Of a DNA stretch of 64,000 nt, positions 48,001-51,000 are shown in pieces. Source of the stretch: an uncultured Chroococcidiopsis sp. (GTDB lineage: Bacteria > Cyanobacteriota > Cyanobacteriia > Cyanobacteriales > Chroococcidiopsidaceae); contig CAXTYC010000019.1 in the NCBI GenBank assembly GCA_964248365.1, positions 35,037-99,036 of the forward strand, written 5' to 3'. Made by a program: the position numbers. Positions within the stretch are counted from its first letter, which is position 1; every line of letters starts with the position of its first letter.

Positions 48001-51000
48001 TGTGGCTTTGCTATCTCAACGGGAGGATATTTCCGAAGAGGAAGCCAATAGAATTGTGGATCAATTTGAATCTGTCCGCAACTCGCTTGTCGAGCAAATT
48101 CAGCAAATCCAGCAAAGAGTGCAGTCTGTACTTGATGGAGTTTTTGGCAGAATTCGCAACTATCTCAACTCCCTGGATCGTCCTGAACTGAACTACGAAG
48201 GCATTGGGCAAGACTTTAAGAAAGTGTTTGACGATCCACAAGCGGGATTTGATGCATTGCGCGATCGTCTGGGTCAATTTGATCGTGGTACTCTGGTTGC
48301 CATCCTTAGCTCTCGACAGGATATTTCCGAAGAGCAGGCGCGGAGGATTATCGATTCTGTTGAACGAGCGCGGGATAATGTACTGCACCAAGCCGAACGT
48401 ATCCAGCAGGAAACTCAAAGACGCTTGAACTCGATCAAAGAGCAAACGAAAAAGCAAGCTCAAGAAGCCAAAAAAGCCGTTGCAGATGCAGCTTGGTGGC
48501 TATTTGGTGCGGCTATTACTTCACTAGCGGCAAGTGCTTTAGCTGGTTTCATCGCTGTAGCTGGCACACCTTTTTAGTGGAACCAGTTGGCTAGGTGAGG
48601 TATATTCTCGCTCCCAGGATACTCCAGGGATCTTCTCGCTCCCAGGCTCAGCCTGAGAGCGAGATTTTATTATTCAAGCAAGTAGGATGGTTGACGCGTG
48701 TGAATTGCAAGAGATTTAGTAGAACGTATCAAGCACAAGGGGCGATCGCCAACAATAGCCCCGACACCCAATTCTCTTGTGCTAGATTTGAACTGAGGTA
48801 GTTATAATACAAAGCTGTAGTATGGGTTCTGTATGCCCAACTGGTGCGCCTACTTATAGTATGAGCGTATACCGCGTGTGCTATGACTATTTCACCGTTT
48901 GATTAGCTCAATTGGAAGAGCTTCTGCCTCAAGGGCAGGATGTTACAGGTTCAAATCCTGTATCAAACTCCCGAAAGTTAGCTCATTTGGTAGAGCGATC
49001 GGTGTATCGCCGATCGGTAACAGGTTCGACTCCTGTACTTTCCACCAAAACACCCTAGTCCTGGGTTACGGACACCTTGTTAGGGACAAGGCAACTTCAC
49101 AGCTTAATTAACTGGTGTTGGGAAAAAAACCCAACTGGGAAAAACCCAATACTGATGTTTGTTTTATCACTCTGTCATGCAGGTGTTTTATAACAGTCAA
49201 GGAGCCAGCGCAAATGCAATTCTCCCTAACTTGAGTATGTCCTTCGTTTTCCAAATCCGTCTCTTTACGGAGATTGCTGGAACTGGCAAACTGAACGGCA
49301 TATTTGAGCGTTGTTTGCTGTTTGAGCGATCGCTCAAACAGTAGGGCAATCTTAATCCAGTTTTGGAGAACCTTTTGTCCGCACCGAACTGTAAAACCTT
49401 GCATTGGCAGAGTAAAAAATAGTTTGTATTATAATGTAGTATATTGAAGTAGGATTTGAGCGGGGATTACAAACCGCAAGGCTTGTAGCTATTGGCTGTT
49501 CTCGCACTCAGGCTGTGCCTGAGAACGAAAATTTAGAGGCTCAGCCTCTTTTGGCAAAGAAGCTATCAAAAAGACAAATGTTTTTATCCATTTTGAGTTG
49601 GGTGAAGCTACCCAAATTATCTATTCAAATTTCTATGTGGAAAACCTTTTATATTAAACCTAACGAGATTGGAATTTTATATCACCGCAGCGATTTTAAG
49701 AAAATTTTGCAGCCTGGAACTTACACTTATTTTGGTCGCCATTGGCAAGTAATAACTTATGACCTCAACCTGCCAGAAGCTAAAATTGATAATTTAGAAT
49801 TGTTGCTAAGAACCCAAAGCGACGTACTGCAAGAATATCTATTGATTGTTAGAACAACTTTCAATCAAGCTGCTTTAGTACGCTGCGGTCAAAATTGGGT
49901 AAGCGTCGCACCAAATCAACTTCGCGCTTTTTGGCGTGGTTATATTGATGTTGAATCCCACATTTTCAATTTAGAAGAAAGCTTAGAATTACCTACTCAG
50001 TTCGTCCAGCAATTGCGTGGAATCGCCTTAAACGGACTGAAAAAATTCCAAATTTCCGAATCTGAAATTGGTTTACTATACATTCAAAATAACTTTGTTC
50101 GACCTCTTGAAACAGGGGAATATGCTTTTTGGAGTGTAAATAAAGATGTTACAGTGAGGACTCTCAGCCGGATTGTGCCTAACCCAGACTTTCCCCTGGA
50201 AGATGTACTAATTGAAAAACATCCTGATTTTGTCAGCGCTTATTGTGTAATTGTACAATTACAAAATCAGCAAGTGGCAATTGTGCGGTATTTGGGTAAG
50301 GTTATTTCTATTTTGCCACCGACAAGCCGTAAGTTATTTTGGCAAGGTGTGGAAGTGGAAGTTATCGACATCAGCAGCAATGCCAAGTTACCACCTGAAG
50401 GGGTGGCTCAATTACTTTCGGGTTCCAAAGAAGTTCTATTACTGGGTCACAATAGTTTGCATATTTGCGAAGTACCCGCGCAGCACGTTGGCTTGTTATA
50501 TGTCAATCAAGAGTTTCAAGCGCAACTACAGCCAGGAATACACGCTTGGTGGTTGTTTGGACGCTCGTTTCAAACCGAAGTATTTGACTTGCGTTTGCAA
50601 AATATTGAAGTATCCGGTCAAGATATCCTCTCGAAAGATAAAGTACCTCTGCGCTTAAATTTAACTGCTGGTTTCCGTATTCAAGATCCACTCAGAGCAA
50701 AAAACAGTTTGTCAGATATTTCTGGTTTCTTGTACAAAGAAGCTCAATTTGCTTTACGCGCAGCAGTTGGCGAAAAAACTTTGGATGCCTTATTAGAAGA
50801 TAAAGGCGCGATTGATAAAAGTGTAGCTGAATATATTCGTACCAAAAGCGCAGACTATGGAATTGAAGTAGATTCCGTAGGGGTGAAAGATATTATTTTA
50901 CCTGGCGAAATTAAGACTATCTTGAGCAAGGTAGTAGAAGCAGAAAAAGCCGCTCAAGCAAACGTAGTCAGACGTAGAGAAGAAACCGCAGCTACCCGCA

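What a model noticed while it worked through the whole genome (the two positions that open the first line are those of the whole stretch)
48897..49047. Twin tRNA-like RNA with hypervariable anticodon loops, locked to a stomatin gene
Two abutting 75-76 nt cloverleafs (called tRNA-Leu(caa) and tRNA-Ile(tat) by ARAGORN) sit head-to-tail with no spacer, 460 nt upstream of a 548-aa Band_7/stomatin gene (g03012); in 13 other Cyanobacteriales genomes the same twin keeps its acceptor, D and T arms almost invariant while the 'anticodon' differs in nearly every genome and is often a loop of the wrong size. I read the twin as a non-decoding tRNA mimic, a new structured RNA gene that works with the stomatin module (as a processing signal, a CCA-ended or aminoacylated scaffold, or a decoy) rather than in translation. 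It would be a new bacterial tRNA-like RNA class, and the two 'tRNAs' of this genome are mis-annotations.
Evidence so far: rna.tsv and ARAGORN: C19 83933-84007 and 84008-84083, Rfam tRNA 61.6 and 47.3 bits; unit 1 has anticodon CAA but no long variable arm, and a normal 85-nt tRNA-Leu(caa) exists on C21; unit 2 loop UGUAUCG lacks U33 and a purine 37. Covariance model of 6 twins searched in 151 Cyanobacteriales genomes: 14 genomes (incl. this one) score 141-177 bits, the next class (ordinary neighbouring tRNAs) <=112 bits. ARAGORN on the 14: anticodons caa/tat, cat/cat, ttt/ttt, tgg/tat, att/gta, cgc/4-nt, several 2-nt loops. 14 of 14 lie 420-560 nt upstream of, and in the same direction as, the g03012 orthologue (59-80% id). 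Structure: 99.3% of 573 cells paired, 17 of 41 pairs with compensatory changes, 0 of 500 [...]
(Added by a program. Inside this text positions count along the whole contig: contig position 35,037 is position 1 of the stretch shown here. "Call 12" and the like, gene names such as g00115 and contig names such as C1 are that model's own, and its searches are not shown. The text may have been shortened before it was handed on; [...] marks where a part breaks off. The agent that wrote the report below was given it as the finding of a first reader that could run no searches.)

Follow-up and report, generated by a model that had tools for sequence, protein, structure and literature searches.

The report
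tRNA-shaped pair inside retron-like RNA cassette
The two abutting tRNA look-alikes are real but are only the middle of a roughly 620-base conserved structured RNA that travels with a stomatin-family gene and, in many relatives, a retron-type reverse transcriptase, which points to an undescribed RNA-protein cassette rather than to translation.

Summary
Two cloverleafs lie head to tail at 48897-49047. Their acceptor, D and T arms are nearly invariant in relatives, while the anticodon arm is only kept as a hairpin.

The twin is not a gene on its own. It sits between a conserved ~100-nt leader and a ~370-nt trailer with covarying long-range helices and a pseudoknot. 107 such modules occur in 109 related loci, carrying one (22), two (69) or three (9) tRNA-like units.

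The module lies just upstream of the Band7/SPFH orthologue (28 of 30 and 75 of 80 loci). The two share a patchy distribution.

A retron-type reverse transcriptase (best PADLOC match RT_XIII) or its remnants flanks the module in 35 of 109 loci. The window has lost it, apart from a possible 32-nt relic.

Metatranscriptome contigs of relatives cover leader, twin and trailer far more deeply than the Band7 gene.

I found no Rfam family, no PADLOC family for the Band7 protein and no paper for this cassette.

My reading: the units are non-decoding tRNA-shaped processing or recognition handles of a retron-like non-coding RNA. The mechanism is inferred, not shown.

The parts
48718..48749 (+). Possible relic of the 3' end of the lost retron-type reverse transcriptase gene
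   Evidence: 25 of 32 bases match the last codons of the module-linked RT of the same-genus genome G186 at the same relative place (VERIKHK against VERIKQK). E = 0.008 in a two-sequence search, so this is weak.
48778..48788 (+). Conserved extended -10 promoter-like element (TGTGCTAGATT) of the module. The predicted start is near 48795.
   Evidence: The consensus T.TG.TA.ATT is conserved in the 29-locus upstream alignment. An RNA contig of a relative begins at 48795, but contigs cannot prove a start.
48795..48896 (+). Conserved structured leader. It has a closing stem (about 48798-48802 with 48886-48890), a hairpin (48823-48826 with 48836-48839) and a stem (48844-48849 with 48865-48870).
   Evidence: nhmmer profile hits of 60-115 bits in 72 of 80 Band7 loci. 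RNAalifold on 66 sequences shows covariation in the hairpin: UA 31, CG 23; GC 40, AU 26.
48897..48971 (+). tRNA-like unit 1. It has an invariant AU-rich acceptor stem. Its anticodon arm can fold as a 7-bp stem with a CAA triloop. A variable discriminator is followed by an invariant CC.
   Evidence: ARAGORN Leu(caa). Rfam tRNA 61.6 bits. Acceptor stem identical in 27 of 29. CC follows the discriminator in 29 of 29.
48972..49047 (+). tRNA-like unit 2. It has a 1:72 mismatch (C:C), an anticodon arm of a 7-bp stem with a UAU triloop, and an encoded A73-CCA (49044-49047).
   Evidence: ARAGORN Ile(tat). Rfam 47.3 bits. Position 1:72 is unpaired in 27 of 29. CCA is encoded in 20 of 29. The UAU-triloop form occurs in 13 of 29.
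49053..49073 (+). H-type pseudoknot directly after the CCA. Stem 1 pairs 49053-49055 with 49063-49065. Stem 2 pairs 49058-49061 with 49070-49073.
   Evidence: Both stems covary in the 66-sequence alignment. Stem 1 reads CCC/GGG, CUC/GAG or UUC/GAA. Stem 2 reads GUCC/GGAC, GCCC/GGGC or GCUC/GAGC (read by eye).
49075..49091 (+). Conserved hairpin (CCTTGT / ACAAGG)
   Evidence: It covaries to CTACTT/AAGTAG, CTTTGT/ACAAAG and TACC/GGTA in relatives.
49092..49168 (+). Variable linker. In this genus it holds two small hairpins with A-rich loops. In many relatives it holds a GAAA-tetraloop hairpin and a T-loop-like hairpin.
   Evidence: Alignments.
49169..49413 (+). Core domain of the trailer. It is closed by a long-range helix (49169-49175 with 49407-49413, and 49178-49183 with 49398-49403) and has nested helices. 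The architecture resembles a retron msr-msd RNA with a1/a2 repeats.
   Evidence: On 66 sequences, 32 pairs in 5 helices were counted. 95.3% of cells are paired, against 30-41% when the partner is slid. 16 of 32 pairs show compensatory change. 0 of 500 shuffles reach the observed values. Trailer profile hits of 120-355 bits occur in 75 of 80 Band7 loci. No Rfam match at E up to 10.
49425..49432 (+). Extended -10-like element (TGTATTAT) ahead of the Band7 gene. The 'TTGGCA' that a consensus scan takes as its -35 is a strand of the closing helix.
   Evidence: Consensus scan. Conservation. In tandem modules that are not followed by Band7 the -10 part is degenerate.
49515..51161 (+). Band7/SPFH protein gene. 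The ORF starts at the GTG at 49515. The conserved part starts at the ATG at 49578. Two N-terminal repeats that resemble the start of an SPFH domain precede the SPFH domain and a long C-terminal helix.
   Evidence: Pfam Band_7 2e-29, residues 319-490. Orthologues are 57-88% identical. No PADLOC family.

Best explanation
The twin is the tRNA-shaped middle of one non-coding transcript of about 620 nt (about 48795-49413). The order is promoter, structured leader, tRNA-like unit 1, tRNA-like unit 2, pseudoknot and hairpin, then a 245-nt domain closed by a long-range helix.

This RNA module is the constant partner of one SPFH/Band7 gene. Ancestrally it also partnered a retron-type reverse transcriptase of the RT_XIII-like clade. 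I read the cassette (RT, RNA module, Band7) as a retron-like tripartite system. The window's locus has lost the RT gene.

The tRNA-like units do not decode here. I infer that they serve as built-in handles for the tRNA-processing machinery. RNase P would cut at the 5' end of each unit. This frees the leader. Because the units abut with zero spacer, the same cut leaves unit 1 ending in N-CC, one A short of CCA. The encoded CCA of the last unit, followed at once by a pseudoknot, would hinder RNase Z. The last unit would then remain as a stable 5' cap on the retron-like RNA, or serve as a recognition element for the RT or the SPFH protein.

Only the L-shape, the acceptor end and the CCA are then under selection. 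That explains why the anticodon arm is kept as a helix but is free in sequence and loop size.

Shown: the anatomy, conservation, covariation, gene linkage and presence in RNA libraries. Inferred: the cleavage sites, any reverse transcription of the trailer, and any binding to Band7.
For: 1. The twin is real and tRNA-shaped. The D-loop GG and the T-loop TTCRA are kept.

2. Selection spares only the anticodon arm. The unit 1 acceptor stem is identical in 27 of 29. D stems are paired in 29 of 29. The T stem covaries. There are 26 and 24 distinct middle segments of 19-26 nt, each still able to form a hairpin with a 3- to 7-nt loop.

3. CC follows unit 1 in 29 of 29, with a variable discriminator and no spacer. 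CCA is encoded in 20 of 29 unit 2 copies. Only 1 of the 40 other tRNAs of this genome (the initiator) encodes CCA, by eye.

4. The flanks are conserved and structured. The leader profile hits 72 of 80 Band7 loci and the trailer profile 75 of 80. Trailer helices are 95.3% paired, 16 of 32 pairs show compensatory change, and 0 of 500 shuffles reach the observed values. The pseudoknot covaries in both stems.

5. The number of units is flexible. Of 107 modules in 109 loci, 22 have one unit, 69 have two, 9 have three and 7 are odd. The third unit is an initiator-tRNA look-alike with a spoiled loop.

6. Linkage to Band7. It lies downstream in 28 of 30 loci. In a sample of 401 genomes of the order, the trailer occurs in 40 and Band7 in 66, in the same families, and 37 of the 40 trailer genomes have Band7.

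7. Linkage to the RT. A retron-type RT (Pfam RVT_1; PADLOC RT_XIII 9.6e-150) or pieces of it lies next to the module in 35 of 109 loci. It lies next to it in 14 of the 66 Band7-bearing genomes of the sample, drawn from at least 6 genera. In 10 of 10 Nostoc-type loci the RT match starts within about 6 nt of the end of the trailer profile. In L109 the ATG follows the closing helix by 16 nt.

8. Expression. In four metatranscriptomes from four studies, contigs of relatives 90-95% alike cover 48795-49056 and 49136-49413. In run X1 the summed depth there is 850-5400, against 10 or less over the Band7 gene. One X1 contig (depth 1792) runs from a unit's 3' end through the pseudoknot into the core.
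Against: There are no raw reads, so no 5' or 3' end is shown. Contigs cannot prove a single transcript, a strand or cleavage. The depths are summed over organisms.

The window itself has no RT next to the module. The genome's only RT of this family (C24) is a 57%-identical long-form paralogue. 17 such unlinked RT loci carry no leader, trailer or tRNA-like unit.

The module and Band7 persist without any such RT in a 100%-complete genome, G055, and in most Band7 genomes of the sample. The RNA-Band7 pair therefore cannot strictly depend on reverse transcription.

No Rfam msr match was found. The G just after the closing helix is A in 8 of 66 sequences. No invariant unpaired branching G is evident.

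In this genus there is almost no room for msr hairpins between the closing helix and the next helix.

The invariant sequence of the unit 1 acceptor stem, which shows no covariation, is more than RNase P would need. It suggests a sequence-specific partner that I have not identified.

In many Nostoc genomes both units keep perfect Met-type loops. Charging, or even decoding, there is not excluded.
Confidence: 0.55

Rival explanations
1. The twin alone is a stand-alone non-decoding tRNA mimic gene that acts with the stomatin protein as a scaffold, decoy or aminoacylated cofactor. The flanks are ordinary spacers.
For: The tRNA shape is kept and the anticodon is free. Linkage to Band7 is firm. An adapter-like junction in a size-fractionated RNA library ends a relative's unit 2 within its 3' tail (tables 7 and 8; that these letters are an adapter is recalled). 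This fits release of a free tRNA-sized RNA.
Against: The leader and trailer give strong profile hits in nearly all Band7 loci and have their own covarying structure. The pair is dispensable, since 22 of 107 modules have one unit and 9 have three. RNA contigs extend into both flanks.
Confidence: 0.1
2. The units are real, chargeable tRNAs whose anticodons are being remoulded. They would be spare or recoding tRNAs carried by a mobile cassette.
For: Many units have canonical 7-nt loops with U33 and a purine at 37. Met(cat) in both units is common in Nostoc. Lys(ttt)/Lys(ttt), Asn(att)/Asn(att) and Leu(cag)/Leu(gag) pairs also occur. Unit 2 has A73 and CCA, which fits MetRS or LysRS rules (recalled).
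Against: In the window, and in at least 13 of 29 unit 2 and 9 of 29 unit 1 copies, the arm is a long stem with a 3-nt loop. Other loops have 4, 5 or 6 nt. The discriminator of unit 1 varies between all four bases. Unit 1 called as Leu lacks the long variable arm. The genome already has the normal set, including Leu(caa) and three CAU tRNAs. Unit 2 has a 1:72 mismatch in 27 of 29, which, as I recall, disfavours EF-Tu binding.
Confidence: 0.07
3. The units are a decaying remnant of a small tRNA operon beside which a retron once landed. Synteny with Band7 and the RT is historical only, and the tRNA-like units have no present function.
For: tRNA genes are common landing sites of mobile elements (established knowledge). 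The RT is often broken or lost. One locus, L106, has a chimeric unit with a mismatched acceptor stem. Distribution is patchy: 21 to 30 of 143 genera.
Against: Decay would not spare the acceptor, D and T arms, the CC/CCA and the zero spacer across many families while the anticodon stems keep pairing through compensatory change. The units occur only with the module, which is single-copy in this genome. No other tRNA of the genome is more than 72% identical. RNA-library depth over the region is high.
Confidence: 0.08
4. The tRNA-like unit with its CCA end is the primer or recognition tag for the linked reverse transcriptase. This would resemble tRNA-primed retroelements or the tRNA-like 3' tag of the Mauriceville retroplasmid, rather than a processing handle.
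For: The encoded CCA is conserved in a clade whose own tRNA genes lack it. The acceptor-stem sequence is invariant, as expected for a sequence-specific partner. The RT is linked. A leader block ACTGGTGCGCC, conserved in the consensus of the 29-locus alignment, contains the complement of the last five bases of unit 2.
Against: The complementarity is only 4-5 nt and does not covary with the discriminator. The RT clade is the retron clade, which, as I recall, primes from a 2'-OH of a G. The module persists without the RT.
Confidence: 0.1
5. The whole module is a long cis-acting 5' untranslated region that controls Band7 expression. The tRNA-like units would sense the state of tRNA processing or the CCA-adding enzyme.
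For: The module has the same strand and a fixed place ahead of Band7. The 3' strand of the closing helix overlaps the apparent -35 of the Band7 promoter.
Against: The module also stands before the RT gene or before a second module. An extended -10 element of its own precedes Band7. RNA depth drops by more than 100-fold before the coding region in X1.
Confidence: 0.1

Closest known systems
Retron non-coding RNA (msr-msd) with its reverse transcriptase and effector (tripartite retrons; type XIII clade, e.g. Mx162/Mx65; Mestre et al. 2020, PMC7736814, passages read)
   Same: A structured RNA closed by a long-range helix of inverted repeats lies directly before (16 nt) or after a retron-clade RT (best PADLOC match RT_XIII). 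A third, conserved protein gene completes the cassette. Distribution is patchy.
   Different: The partner is an SPFH/Band7 protein, not the WH-SWIM and ARM proteins of type XIII. The RNA carries a leader and 1-3 tRNA-like domains ('tRNA' occurs 0 times in that paper's main text). No Rfam msr match and no clear branching G were found. The RNA and Band7 often persist without the RT. No msDNA has been shown.
tRNA-like processing elements of long non-coding RNAs (mascRNA of MALAT1, the NEAT1 tRNA-like; seen only in search listings; details recalled)
   Same: A cloverleaf without a conserved anticodon is embedded in a longer non-coding transcript. It is presumably read by RNase P and RNase Z to define the ends of the flanking RNA.
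   Different: This one is bacterial. It has up to three units, which lie upstream of the main structured RNA instead of at its 3' end. The CCA is encoded. Cleavage has not been shown here.
Functional spacers of bacterial tRNA operons (3' ETS of leuZ, ITS of metZWV in E. coli; recalled, not read here)
   Same: The functional RNA is the transcribed spacer beside tRNAs and is released by tRNA processing.
   Different: In those operons the tRNAs are genuine and the spacers are short sponges for small RNAs. Here the tRNAs have lost decoding and the flanks are large, ornate and linked to protein genes.
Bacterial tRNA mimics: the tmRNA tRNA-like domain and YrlA (Y RNA-like)
   Same: An acceptor/T-arm mimic is used outside decoding.
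   Different: ARAGORN finds no tmRNA here. The YrlA model scores 20.7 bits against a gathering score of 69, and only across the junction of the two units. Here the cloverleafs are complete.

Membership tests
Decoding tRNA | Cloverleaf with a 7-bp acceptor stem, D arm, T arm and T-loop | tested here: met
   ARAGORN. Rfam tRNA 61.6 and 47.3 bits. Arms parsed.
Decoding tRNA | 7-nt anticodon loop with U33 and a purine at 37, and the same anticodon in orthologues | tested here: not met
   The unit 2 loop is UGUAUCG, or a 7-bp stem with a UAU triloop. Loops of 3-7 nt and many different anticodons occur across 29 twins and 80 further loci.
Decoding tRNA | Identity elements that fit the anticodon (a long variable arm for bacterial tRNA-Leu) | tested here: not met
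   Unit 1 has CAA but a short variable loop (5 nt in the 5-bp-stem fold). The genuine Leu(caa) of the genome is 85 nt.
Decoding tRNA | Aminoacylation and use on the ribosome | not testable with these tools
   This needs tRNA charging assays.
Retron ncRNA (msr-msd) | Lies next to a retron-clade reverse transcriptase | tested here: inconclusive
   Met in relatives: 35 of 109 loci, with PADLOC RT_XIII 9.6e-150. Not met in the window, which has only a 32-nt relic and an unlinked paralogue on C24.
Retron ncRNA (msr-msd) | Terminal inverted repeats (a1/a2) that close the RNA | tested here: met
   Helices 1 and 2 have 13 pairs, 7 of them with compensatory change. In L109 the RT ATG follows 16 nt after the 3' strand.
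Retron ncRNA (msr-msd) | Invariant branching G after a1 and msr hairpins | tested here: inconclusive
   The first unpaired G after the helix is A in 8 of 66 sequences. The hairpin between the closing helix and the next helix is absent in this genus.
Retron ncRNA (msr-msd) | Match to the Rfam msr model | tested here: not met
   Apart from the two tRNA matches, no retron family appears among the matches up to E = 10 in 48700-49560.
Retron ncRNA (msr-msd) | Production of msDNA | not testable with these tools
   This needs nucleic-acid extraction from an RT-bearing strain.
Retron type XIII system | WH-SWIM and ARM/HEAT partner proteins (Mestre et al. 2020) | tested here: not met
   PADLOC gives no family for Band7 or for the Tab2-like neighbour. 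The 1053-aa neighbour gets only a marginal Csn2 match. Neighbours in other loci were not scanned.
tRNA-like processing element (mascRNA type) | tRNA-like fold embedded in a longer non-coding transcript | tested here: met
   The flanks are conserved and structured. RNA contigs run across the unit borders.
tRNA-like processing element (mascRNA type) | Cleavage by RNase P and RNase Z at the unit borders | not testable with these tools
   There is only a hint: an adapter-like junction within the 3' tail of a relative's unit 2 in one run.
YrlA / tmRNA | Score at or above the family threshold | tested here: not met
   YrlA scores 20.7 against 69 bits. ARAGORN finds no tmRNA.

The most novel reading that the evidence does not exclude
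This is a new kind of bacterial retroelement or immune cassette. In it, complete tRNA-shaped domains with an encoded CCA end are part of the reverse transcriptase's RNA and act as primer, recognition tag or phage-sensing bait. The effector is a cage-forming SPFH protein that binds the RNA, or its cDNA, as a ribonucleoprotein. After RT loss, as in this genome, the RNA-SPFH pair would live on as an RNA-protein particle.
Probability: 0.12. Interest if true: 0.92.

Novelty: new variant of a known kind. Interest (0 to 1): 0.8.

Why it matters
If this holds, it adds three things.

- It would be the first bacterial case in which whole tRNA look-alikes are fixed parts of a large non-coding RNA, and the first retron-clade RNA that carries them.
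- It would give retron-type reverse transcriptases a new partner class, an SPFH/stomatin protein. It would also give one branch of a long-enigmatic protein family an RNA-linked role.
- It has a practical side for annotation. tRNA finders call these units as one or two extra tRNA genes (ARAGORN here). Where database records carry such calls, as 'tRNA-Met' in Nostoc or as odd 'Leu', 'Ile', 'Pyl' or 'Stop' tRNAs, they are most likely not part of the decoding set. That would distort tRNA counts and codon-usage inferences.

The system is also easy to test, because genetically tractable Nostoc strains carry the full cassette.

Tried and rejected
- **Similarity to real tRNAs of the genome.** The best identities are 0.69 and 0.72, so no donor tRNA stands out.
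- **Loop complementarity.** I asked whether the Met-type loop pairs with a conserved AUGAG in the leader, like a specifier codon. The leader motif does not change with the loop. It stays ATGAG with UUU loops in L010, and reads TTGAG with CAU loops in L008 and L020. Rejected.
- **T-box-like pairing of the 3' NCCA.** Only 4-5 nt of GGTG/TGGTG blocks are complementary, with no covariation with the discriminator. Not pursued.
- **Alanine identity.** G3:U70 occurs in only 9 of 29 unit 2 copies. It is not a consistent feature.
- **Small ORF in the trailer.** An AAGGAG-N9-ATG is followed by 6 codons, but the ATG is not conserved. Rejected.
- **Tab2-like RNA-binding gene downstream of Band7 as a partner.** It is present in 0 of 80 other loci. 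Rejected as part of the system.
- **Rfam at E up to 10.** This gave only the two tRNA hits and noise.
- **Structure of Band7.** AlphaFold2 on 21 close orthologues gave mean pLDDT 57.5 and pTM 0.33. That is too poor for a fold search, so none was run. A resemblance of the domain order to the major vault protein was only a recalled idea and was not tested.
- **Unlinked long-form RTs.** There was no leader, trailer or tRNA-like unit in 17 loci and no conserved flanking sequence. They gave no independent model of the RT's RNA.
- **RNA runs.** All were Logan contigs with small shares of the sampled words. Parts without cover (49436-49523), and any habitat reading, are not used as evidence.
- **Literature.** Six searches, and passages of PMC7736814, PMC13712802, PMC7159879, PMC4143802 and PMC8632793, gave no description of a retron or RT system with tRNA-like RNA or an SPFH partner. 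Supplementary tables of Mestre et al. 2020, which list individual retron loci, were not opened and could hold cyanobacterial entries.

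
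Full report
**1. The observation**

ARAGORN finds three tRNA-type genes in the window. Two abut without a spacer: 48897-48971, called Leu(caa), and 48972-49047, called Ile(tat). Rfam's tRNA model scores them 61.6 and 47.3 bits against a gathering score of 29.

A 548-aa ORF follows at 49515-51161. Its residues 319-490 match Pfam Band_7 at 2e-29.

The genome (102 contigs) has 42 ARAGORN tRNAs. They include a normal 85-nt Leu(caa) on C21 and three Met(cat) genes. Neither unit is more than 72% identical to any other tRNA of the genome.

**2. Conservation pattern of the twin**

A DNA search of 401 genomes of the order gave 30 loci with strong matches. 29 of them hold both units.

I parsed them arm by arm.

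Unit 1:
- The acceptor stem GTTTGAT/ATCAAAC is identical in 27 of 29.
- Positions 8-9 are TA in 29 of 29.
- All four D-stem pairs are paired in 29 of 29.
- T-stem pairs 1 and 2 covary (for example CG 12, TA 15).
- The discriminator takes all four bases. It is followed by CC in 29 of 29, and then at once by the first base of unit 2.

Unit 2:
- Pairs 2-7 of the acceptor stem are paired in 28-29 of 29.
- Position 1:72 is unpaired in 27 of 29.
- The discriminator is A in 23 of 29.
- CCA is encoded in 20 of 29.

The segment holding the anticodon arm and variable loop has 26 and 24 distinct sequences in the two units. It still folds as a hairpin of 5-8 bp with a loop of 3-7 nt.

Two forms of unit 2 recur. 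One has a Met-type CUCAUAA loop. The other is a 7-bp stem with a UAU triloop and occurs in 13 of 29, including the window. In L007 the U.G pair of that stem has become U-A.

In the window unit 1 can likewise form a 7-bp stem with a CAA triloop.

Among the 40 other tRNAs of this genome only the initiator encodes CCA. It also has a C1:C72 mismatch and A73, like unit 2 (by eye).

**3. The twin is part of a larger RNA**

I aligned the DNA around the 29 twins. About 130 nt upstream and about 370 nt downstream are conserved in long blocks across families.

Upstream lies an extended -10-like element (48778-48788), followed by a leader. The leader has three structural features (66 non-redundant sequences):
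- a closing stem;
- a hairpin that covaries (UA 31 / CG 23; GC 40 / AU 26);
- a six-pair stem.

Directly after the CCA lies an H-type pseudoknot. Both of its stems covary. A covarying hairpin follows.

Next comes a variable linker. In many relatives it holds a GAAA-tetraloop hairpin and a T-loop-like hairpin.

Last comes a 245-nt core (49169-49413). I defined five nested helices (32 pairs) from the consensus and counted them on a MAFFT alignment of 66 modules:

| Measure | Result |
|---|---|
| Cells that form a standard pair | 95.3% |
| Same, with the 3' partner slid by 1-3 columns | 30-41% |
| Pairs with compensatory change | 16 of 32 |
| Shuffles reaching the observed values | 0 of 500 |

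The clearest pairs are 203:695 (CG 37, UA 20, UG 7) and 205:693 (GC 35, AU 23). The structure was derived from these same sequences, which favours it in the slide control. The compensatory changes do not depend on that.

The 3' strand of the closing helix is the 'TTGGCA' that a consensus scan takes for the -35 of a Band7 promoter.

Rfam has no family for the leader or the trailer, even at E = 10. The module is single-copy in this genome.

**4. Modularity**

A scan with the Band7 protein found 594 relatives. The best 80 loci were kept. They include Nostoc spp., N. punctiforme NIES-2108, Scytonema hofmanni UTEX 2349, Fischerella PCC 7414, Calothrix, Microcoleus, Chroococcidiopsis and Crinalium.

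Profiles built from my alignments find the trailer in 75 of these 80 loci and the leader in 72. At least three of the loci without a trailer hit (L033, L044, L078) have 0 to about 1170 nt of upstream DNA.

Over all 109 loci there are 107 complete modules:

| Insert between leader and trailer | Units | Modules |
|---|---|---|
| 70-89 nt | one | 22 |
| 140-159 nt | two | 69 |
| 240-259 nt | three | 9 |
| other lengths | odd | 7 |

The third unit is an initiator-tRNA look-alike with a spoiled loop. It is preceded by a second copy of the pseudoknot.

Several Nostoc and other genomes carry two modules in tandem. In Nostoc both units are usually Met(cat)-type. The pair is therefore the commonest form, not an obligatory one.

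**5. Linkage to Band7**

Band7 lies downstream on the same strand in 28 of 30 loci.

| Feature searched in the 401-genome sample | Genomes | Genera (of 143) |
|---|---|---|
| Trailer core | 40 | 21 |
| N-terminal 300 aa of Band7 (one gene per genome; split across two contigs or ORFs in three) | 66 | 30 |

The two occur in the same families, and 37 of the 40 trailer genomes also have Band7. Most further Band7 genomes, for example the g41 group, had twin matches and have more diverged trailers.

The Tab2-like gene downstream of Band7 in the window is not conserved there (0 of 80 loci).

**6. Linkage to a retron-type reverse transcriptase**

In Nostoc loci the ORF between the two modules is a reverse transcriptase. 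It matches Pfam RVT_1. Its best PADLOC model is RT_XIII at 9.6e-150, followed by other retron RT models.

Matches to this RT occur in 35 of 109 loci:
- 17 are near full length;
- 1 is frameshifted;
- 5 are cut by the locus end;
- 12 are short remnants right beside the module.

Three gene orders occur:

| Gene order | Where seen |
|---|---|
| RT - module - Band7 | the window's own genus (L002-L006); G186 in full |
| module - RT - module - Band7 | Nostoc |
| RT - module - module - Band7 | another family |

In 10 of 10 Nostoc-type loci the RT match begins within about 6 nt of the end of the trailer profile. In L109 the ATG lies 16 nt after the closing helix.

In the 401-genome sample the RT family occurs in 104 genomes. 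By coordinates it lies next to the module or Band7 in 14 of the 66 Band7 genomes, from at least six genera, and in G240.

The window has no RT at the locus. Upstream lies a 1053-aa repeat protein. A 32-nt stretch at 48718-48749 matches the last codons of the G186 RT at the same relative position (25 of 32; weak).

The genome's only RT of this family, on contig C24, is a long-form paralogue. It is 57% identical to the linked RT and matches PADLOC RT_XIII at 9.7e-201.

17 such unlinked RT loci have no leader, trailer or tRNA-like unit and no conserved flanks.

G055, a 100%-complete genome, has the module and Band7 but no such RT at E <= 1e-20.

**7. Expression**

No run held more than 9% of the sampled words. 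I laid four metatranscriptomes from four studies, all as contigs.

Contigs 90-95% alike, hence from relatives, cover 48795-49056 (leader and twin) and 49136-49413 (trailer core). In X1 the summed depth there is 850-5400, against 10 or less over the Band7 gene.

One X1 contig (depth 1792) runs from a unit's T arm and CCA through the pseudoknot into the core. In a size-fractionated library, one 70-nt contig ends a relative's unit 2 within its 3' tail and continues in adapter-like letters.

These data show presence in RNA libraries and continuity across unit borders. They cannot show starts, ends, strand or a single transcript.

**8. Interpretation**

The pattern of constraint says that the L-shape and the acceptor end matter and that the anticodon does not. 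The constrained features are the acceptor, D and T arms, the CC/CCA, the zero spacer and a paired anticodon stem of free sequence.

The conserved, structured flanks and the variable number of units say that the units serve the flanking RNA.

The simplest mechanism is processing. RNase P would cut at the 5' end of each unit, which releases the leader. Thanks to the zero spacer, this leaves unit 1 with N-CC. The encoded CCA (as I recall, an anti-determinant for RNase Z), together with the pseudoknot, would keep the last unit on the trailer.

The gene context makes the trailer the likely RNA partner of the retron-type RT. The supporting points are a closing helix like a1/a2, the RT ORF 16 nt downstream, and a third conserved gene.

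The evidence against a strict retron reading is set out in the evidence-against field of my best explanation. The main points are loss of the RT in most carriers, no clear branching G, no msr hairpins in this genus and no Rfam msr match.

The invariant acceptor sequence of unit 1, which shows no covariation at all, hints at a sequence-specific partner that I could not name.

**9. Comparison and novelty**

The closest known systems are:
- retrons of the type XIII RT clade, whose partners are WH-SWIM and ARM proteins ('tRNA' occurs 0 times in the main text of Mestre et al. 2020);
- the tRNA-like processing elements of MALAT1 and NEAT1;
- functional spacers of tRNA operons;
- tmRNA and YrlA mimics.

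None combines complete tRNA-like domains, a large ornate RNA, a retron-clade RT and an SPFH protein.

Six literature searches and passages of five papers gave no description of such a system. I did not open the supplementary tables.

I rate it a new variant of a known kind: a retron-like cassette with tRNA-like processing elements. There is a small chance that it is something more unusual.

**10. Verdict**

The finding is real.

The unit of biology is larger than the twin. It is a leader, tRNA-like units and a retron-like RNA module, tied to Band7 and, ancestrally, to a reverse transcriptase.

Noticed in passing
window 60191-60270 (-): Rfam Intron_gpII (group II intron catalytic domain) scores 53.6 bits against a gathering score of 40. 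This suggests a group II intron about 11 kb downstream of the locus.
   Followed up: no
G000:C24:42201-43202 (L111:1105-2508): A solitary long-form retron-type RT of 467 aa (PADLOC RT_XIII 9.7e-201). It has a charged N-terminal extension of about 130 aa, sits between unrelated genes and has no recognisable RNA partner. 17 such loci in other genomes share no conserved flanks.
   Followed up: partly
G000:C1:269244-269320 (-): The genuine initiator tRNA of this genome has a C1:C72 mismatch. It is the only ordinary tRNA gene of the genome with an encoded CCA. Both features are shared with tRNA-like unit 2.
   Followed up: no
G000:C49:2985-3076: ARAGORN calls a 92-nt 'tRNA-Asp(atc)'. The call looks doubtful.
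   Followed up: no
L106:770-844 (Nostoc sp. CHAB 5715): A single chimeric unit carries the 5' acceptor strand of unit 1 and the 3' strand of unit 2, so its acceptor stem is mismatched. It looks like a deletion by recombination between the two Met-type units.
   Followed up: no
L010, L036, L040 and Nostoc loci: The two units of one genome often carry the same or a similar loop (ttt/ttt, att/att, cag/gag, cat/cat), although their stems differ. This suggests concerted change or a shared constraint on both loops.
   Followed up: no
G262:C1:516058-517094 (-); G348:C15:15408-16442: The module-linked RT is split by a frameshift in G262 and carries an in-frame TAA in G348. Both are same-genus relatives, so the RT is decaying while the module and Band7 stay intact.
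   Followed up: partly
L112:6024-6650 (G186): A small antitoxin-like ORF and a ParE/RelE-like toxin ORF lie directly upstream of the RT (names recalled from the translated sequence). This hints that the cassette sits in an accessory or defence-type neighbourhood.
   Followed up: no
window 49320-49340 and the anticodon stems of many units: The cyanobacterial HIP1-type palindrome GCGATCGC recurs. It appears in a perfect 20-nt palindrome of the trailer's variable hairpin and at the D-stem/anticodon-stem junction of several units. It may drive some of the sequence turnover.
   Followed up: no
window 51199-52029 (+); 44390-45310 (+); 45416-48577 (+): The neighbours are a Tab2/Atab2-like RNA-binding protein, a PRC-barrel/DUF2382 protein and a 1053-aa repeat protein. 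Tab2 and the repeat protein were not found at the corresponding place in other loci.
   Followed up: partly
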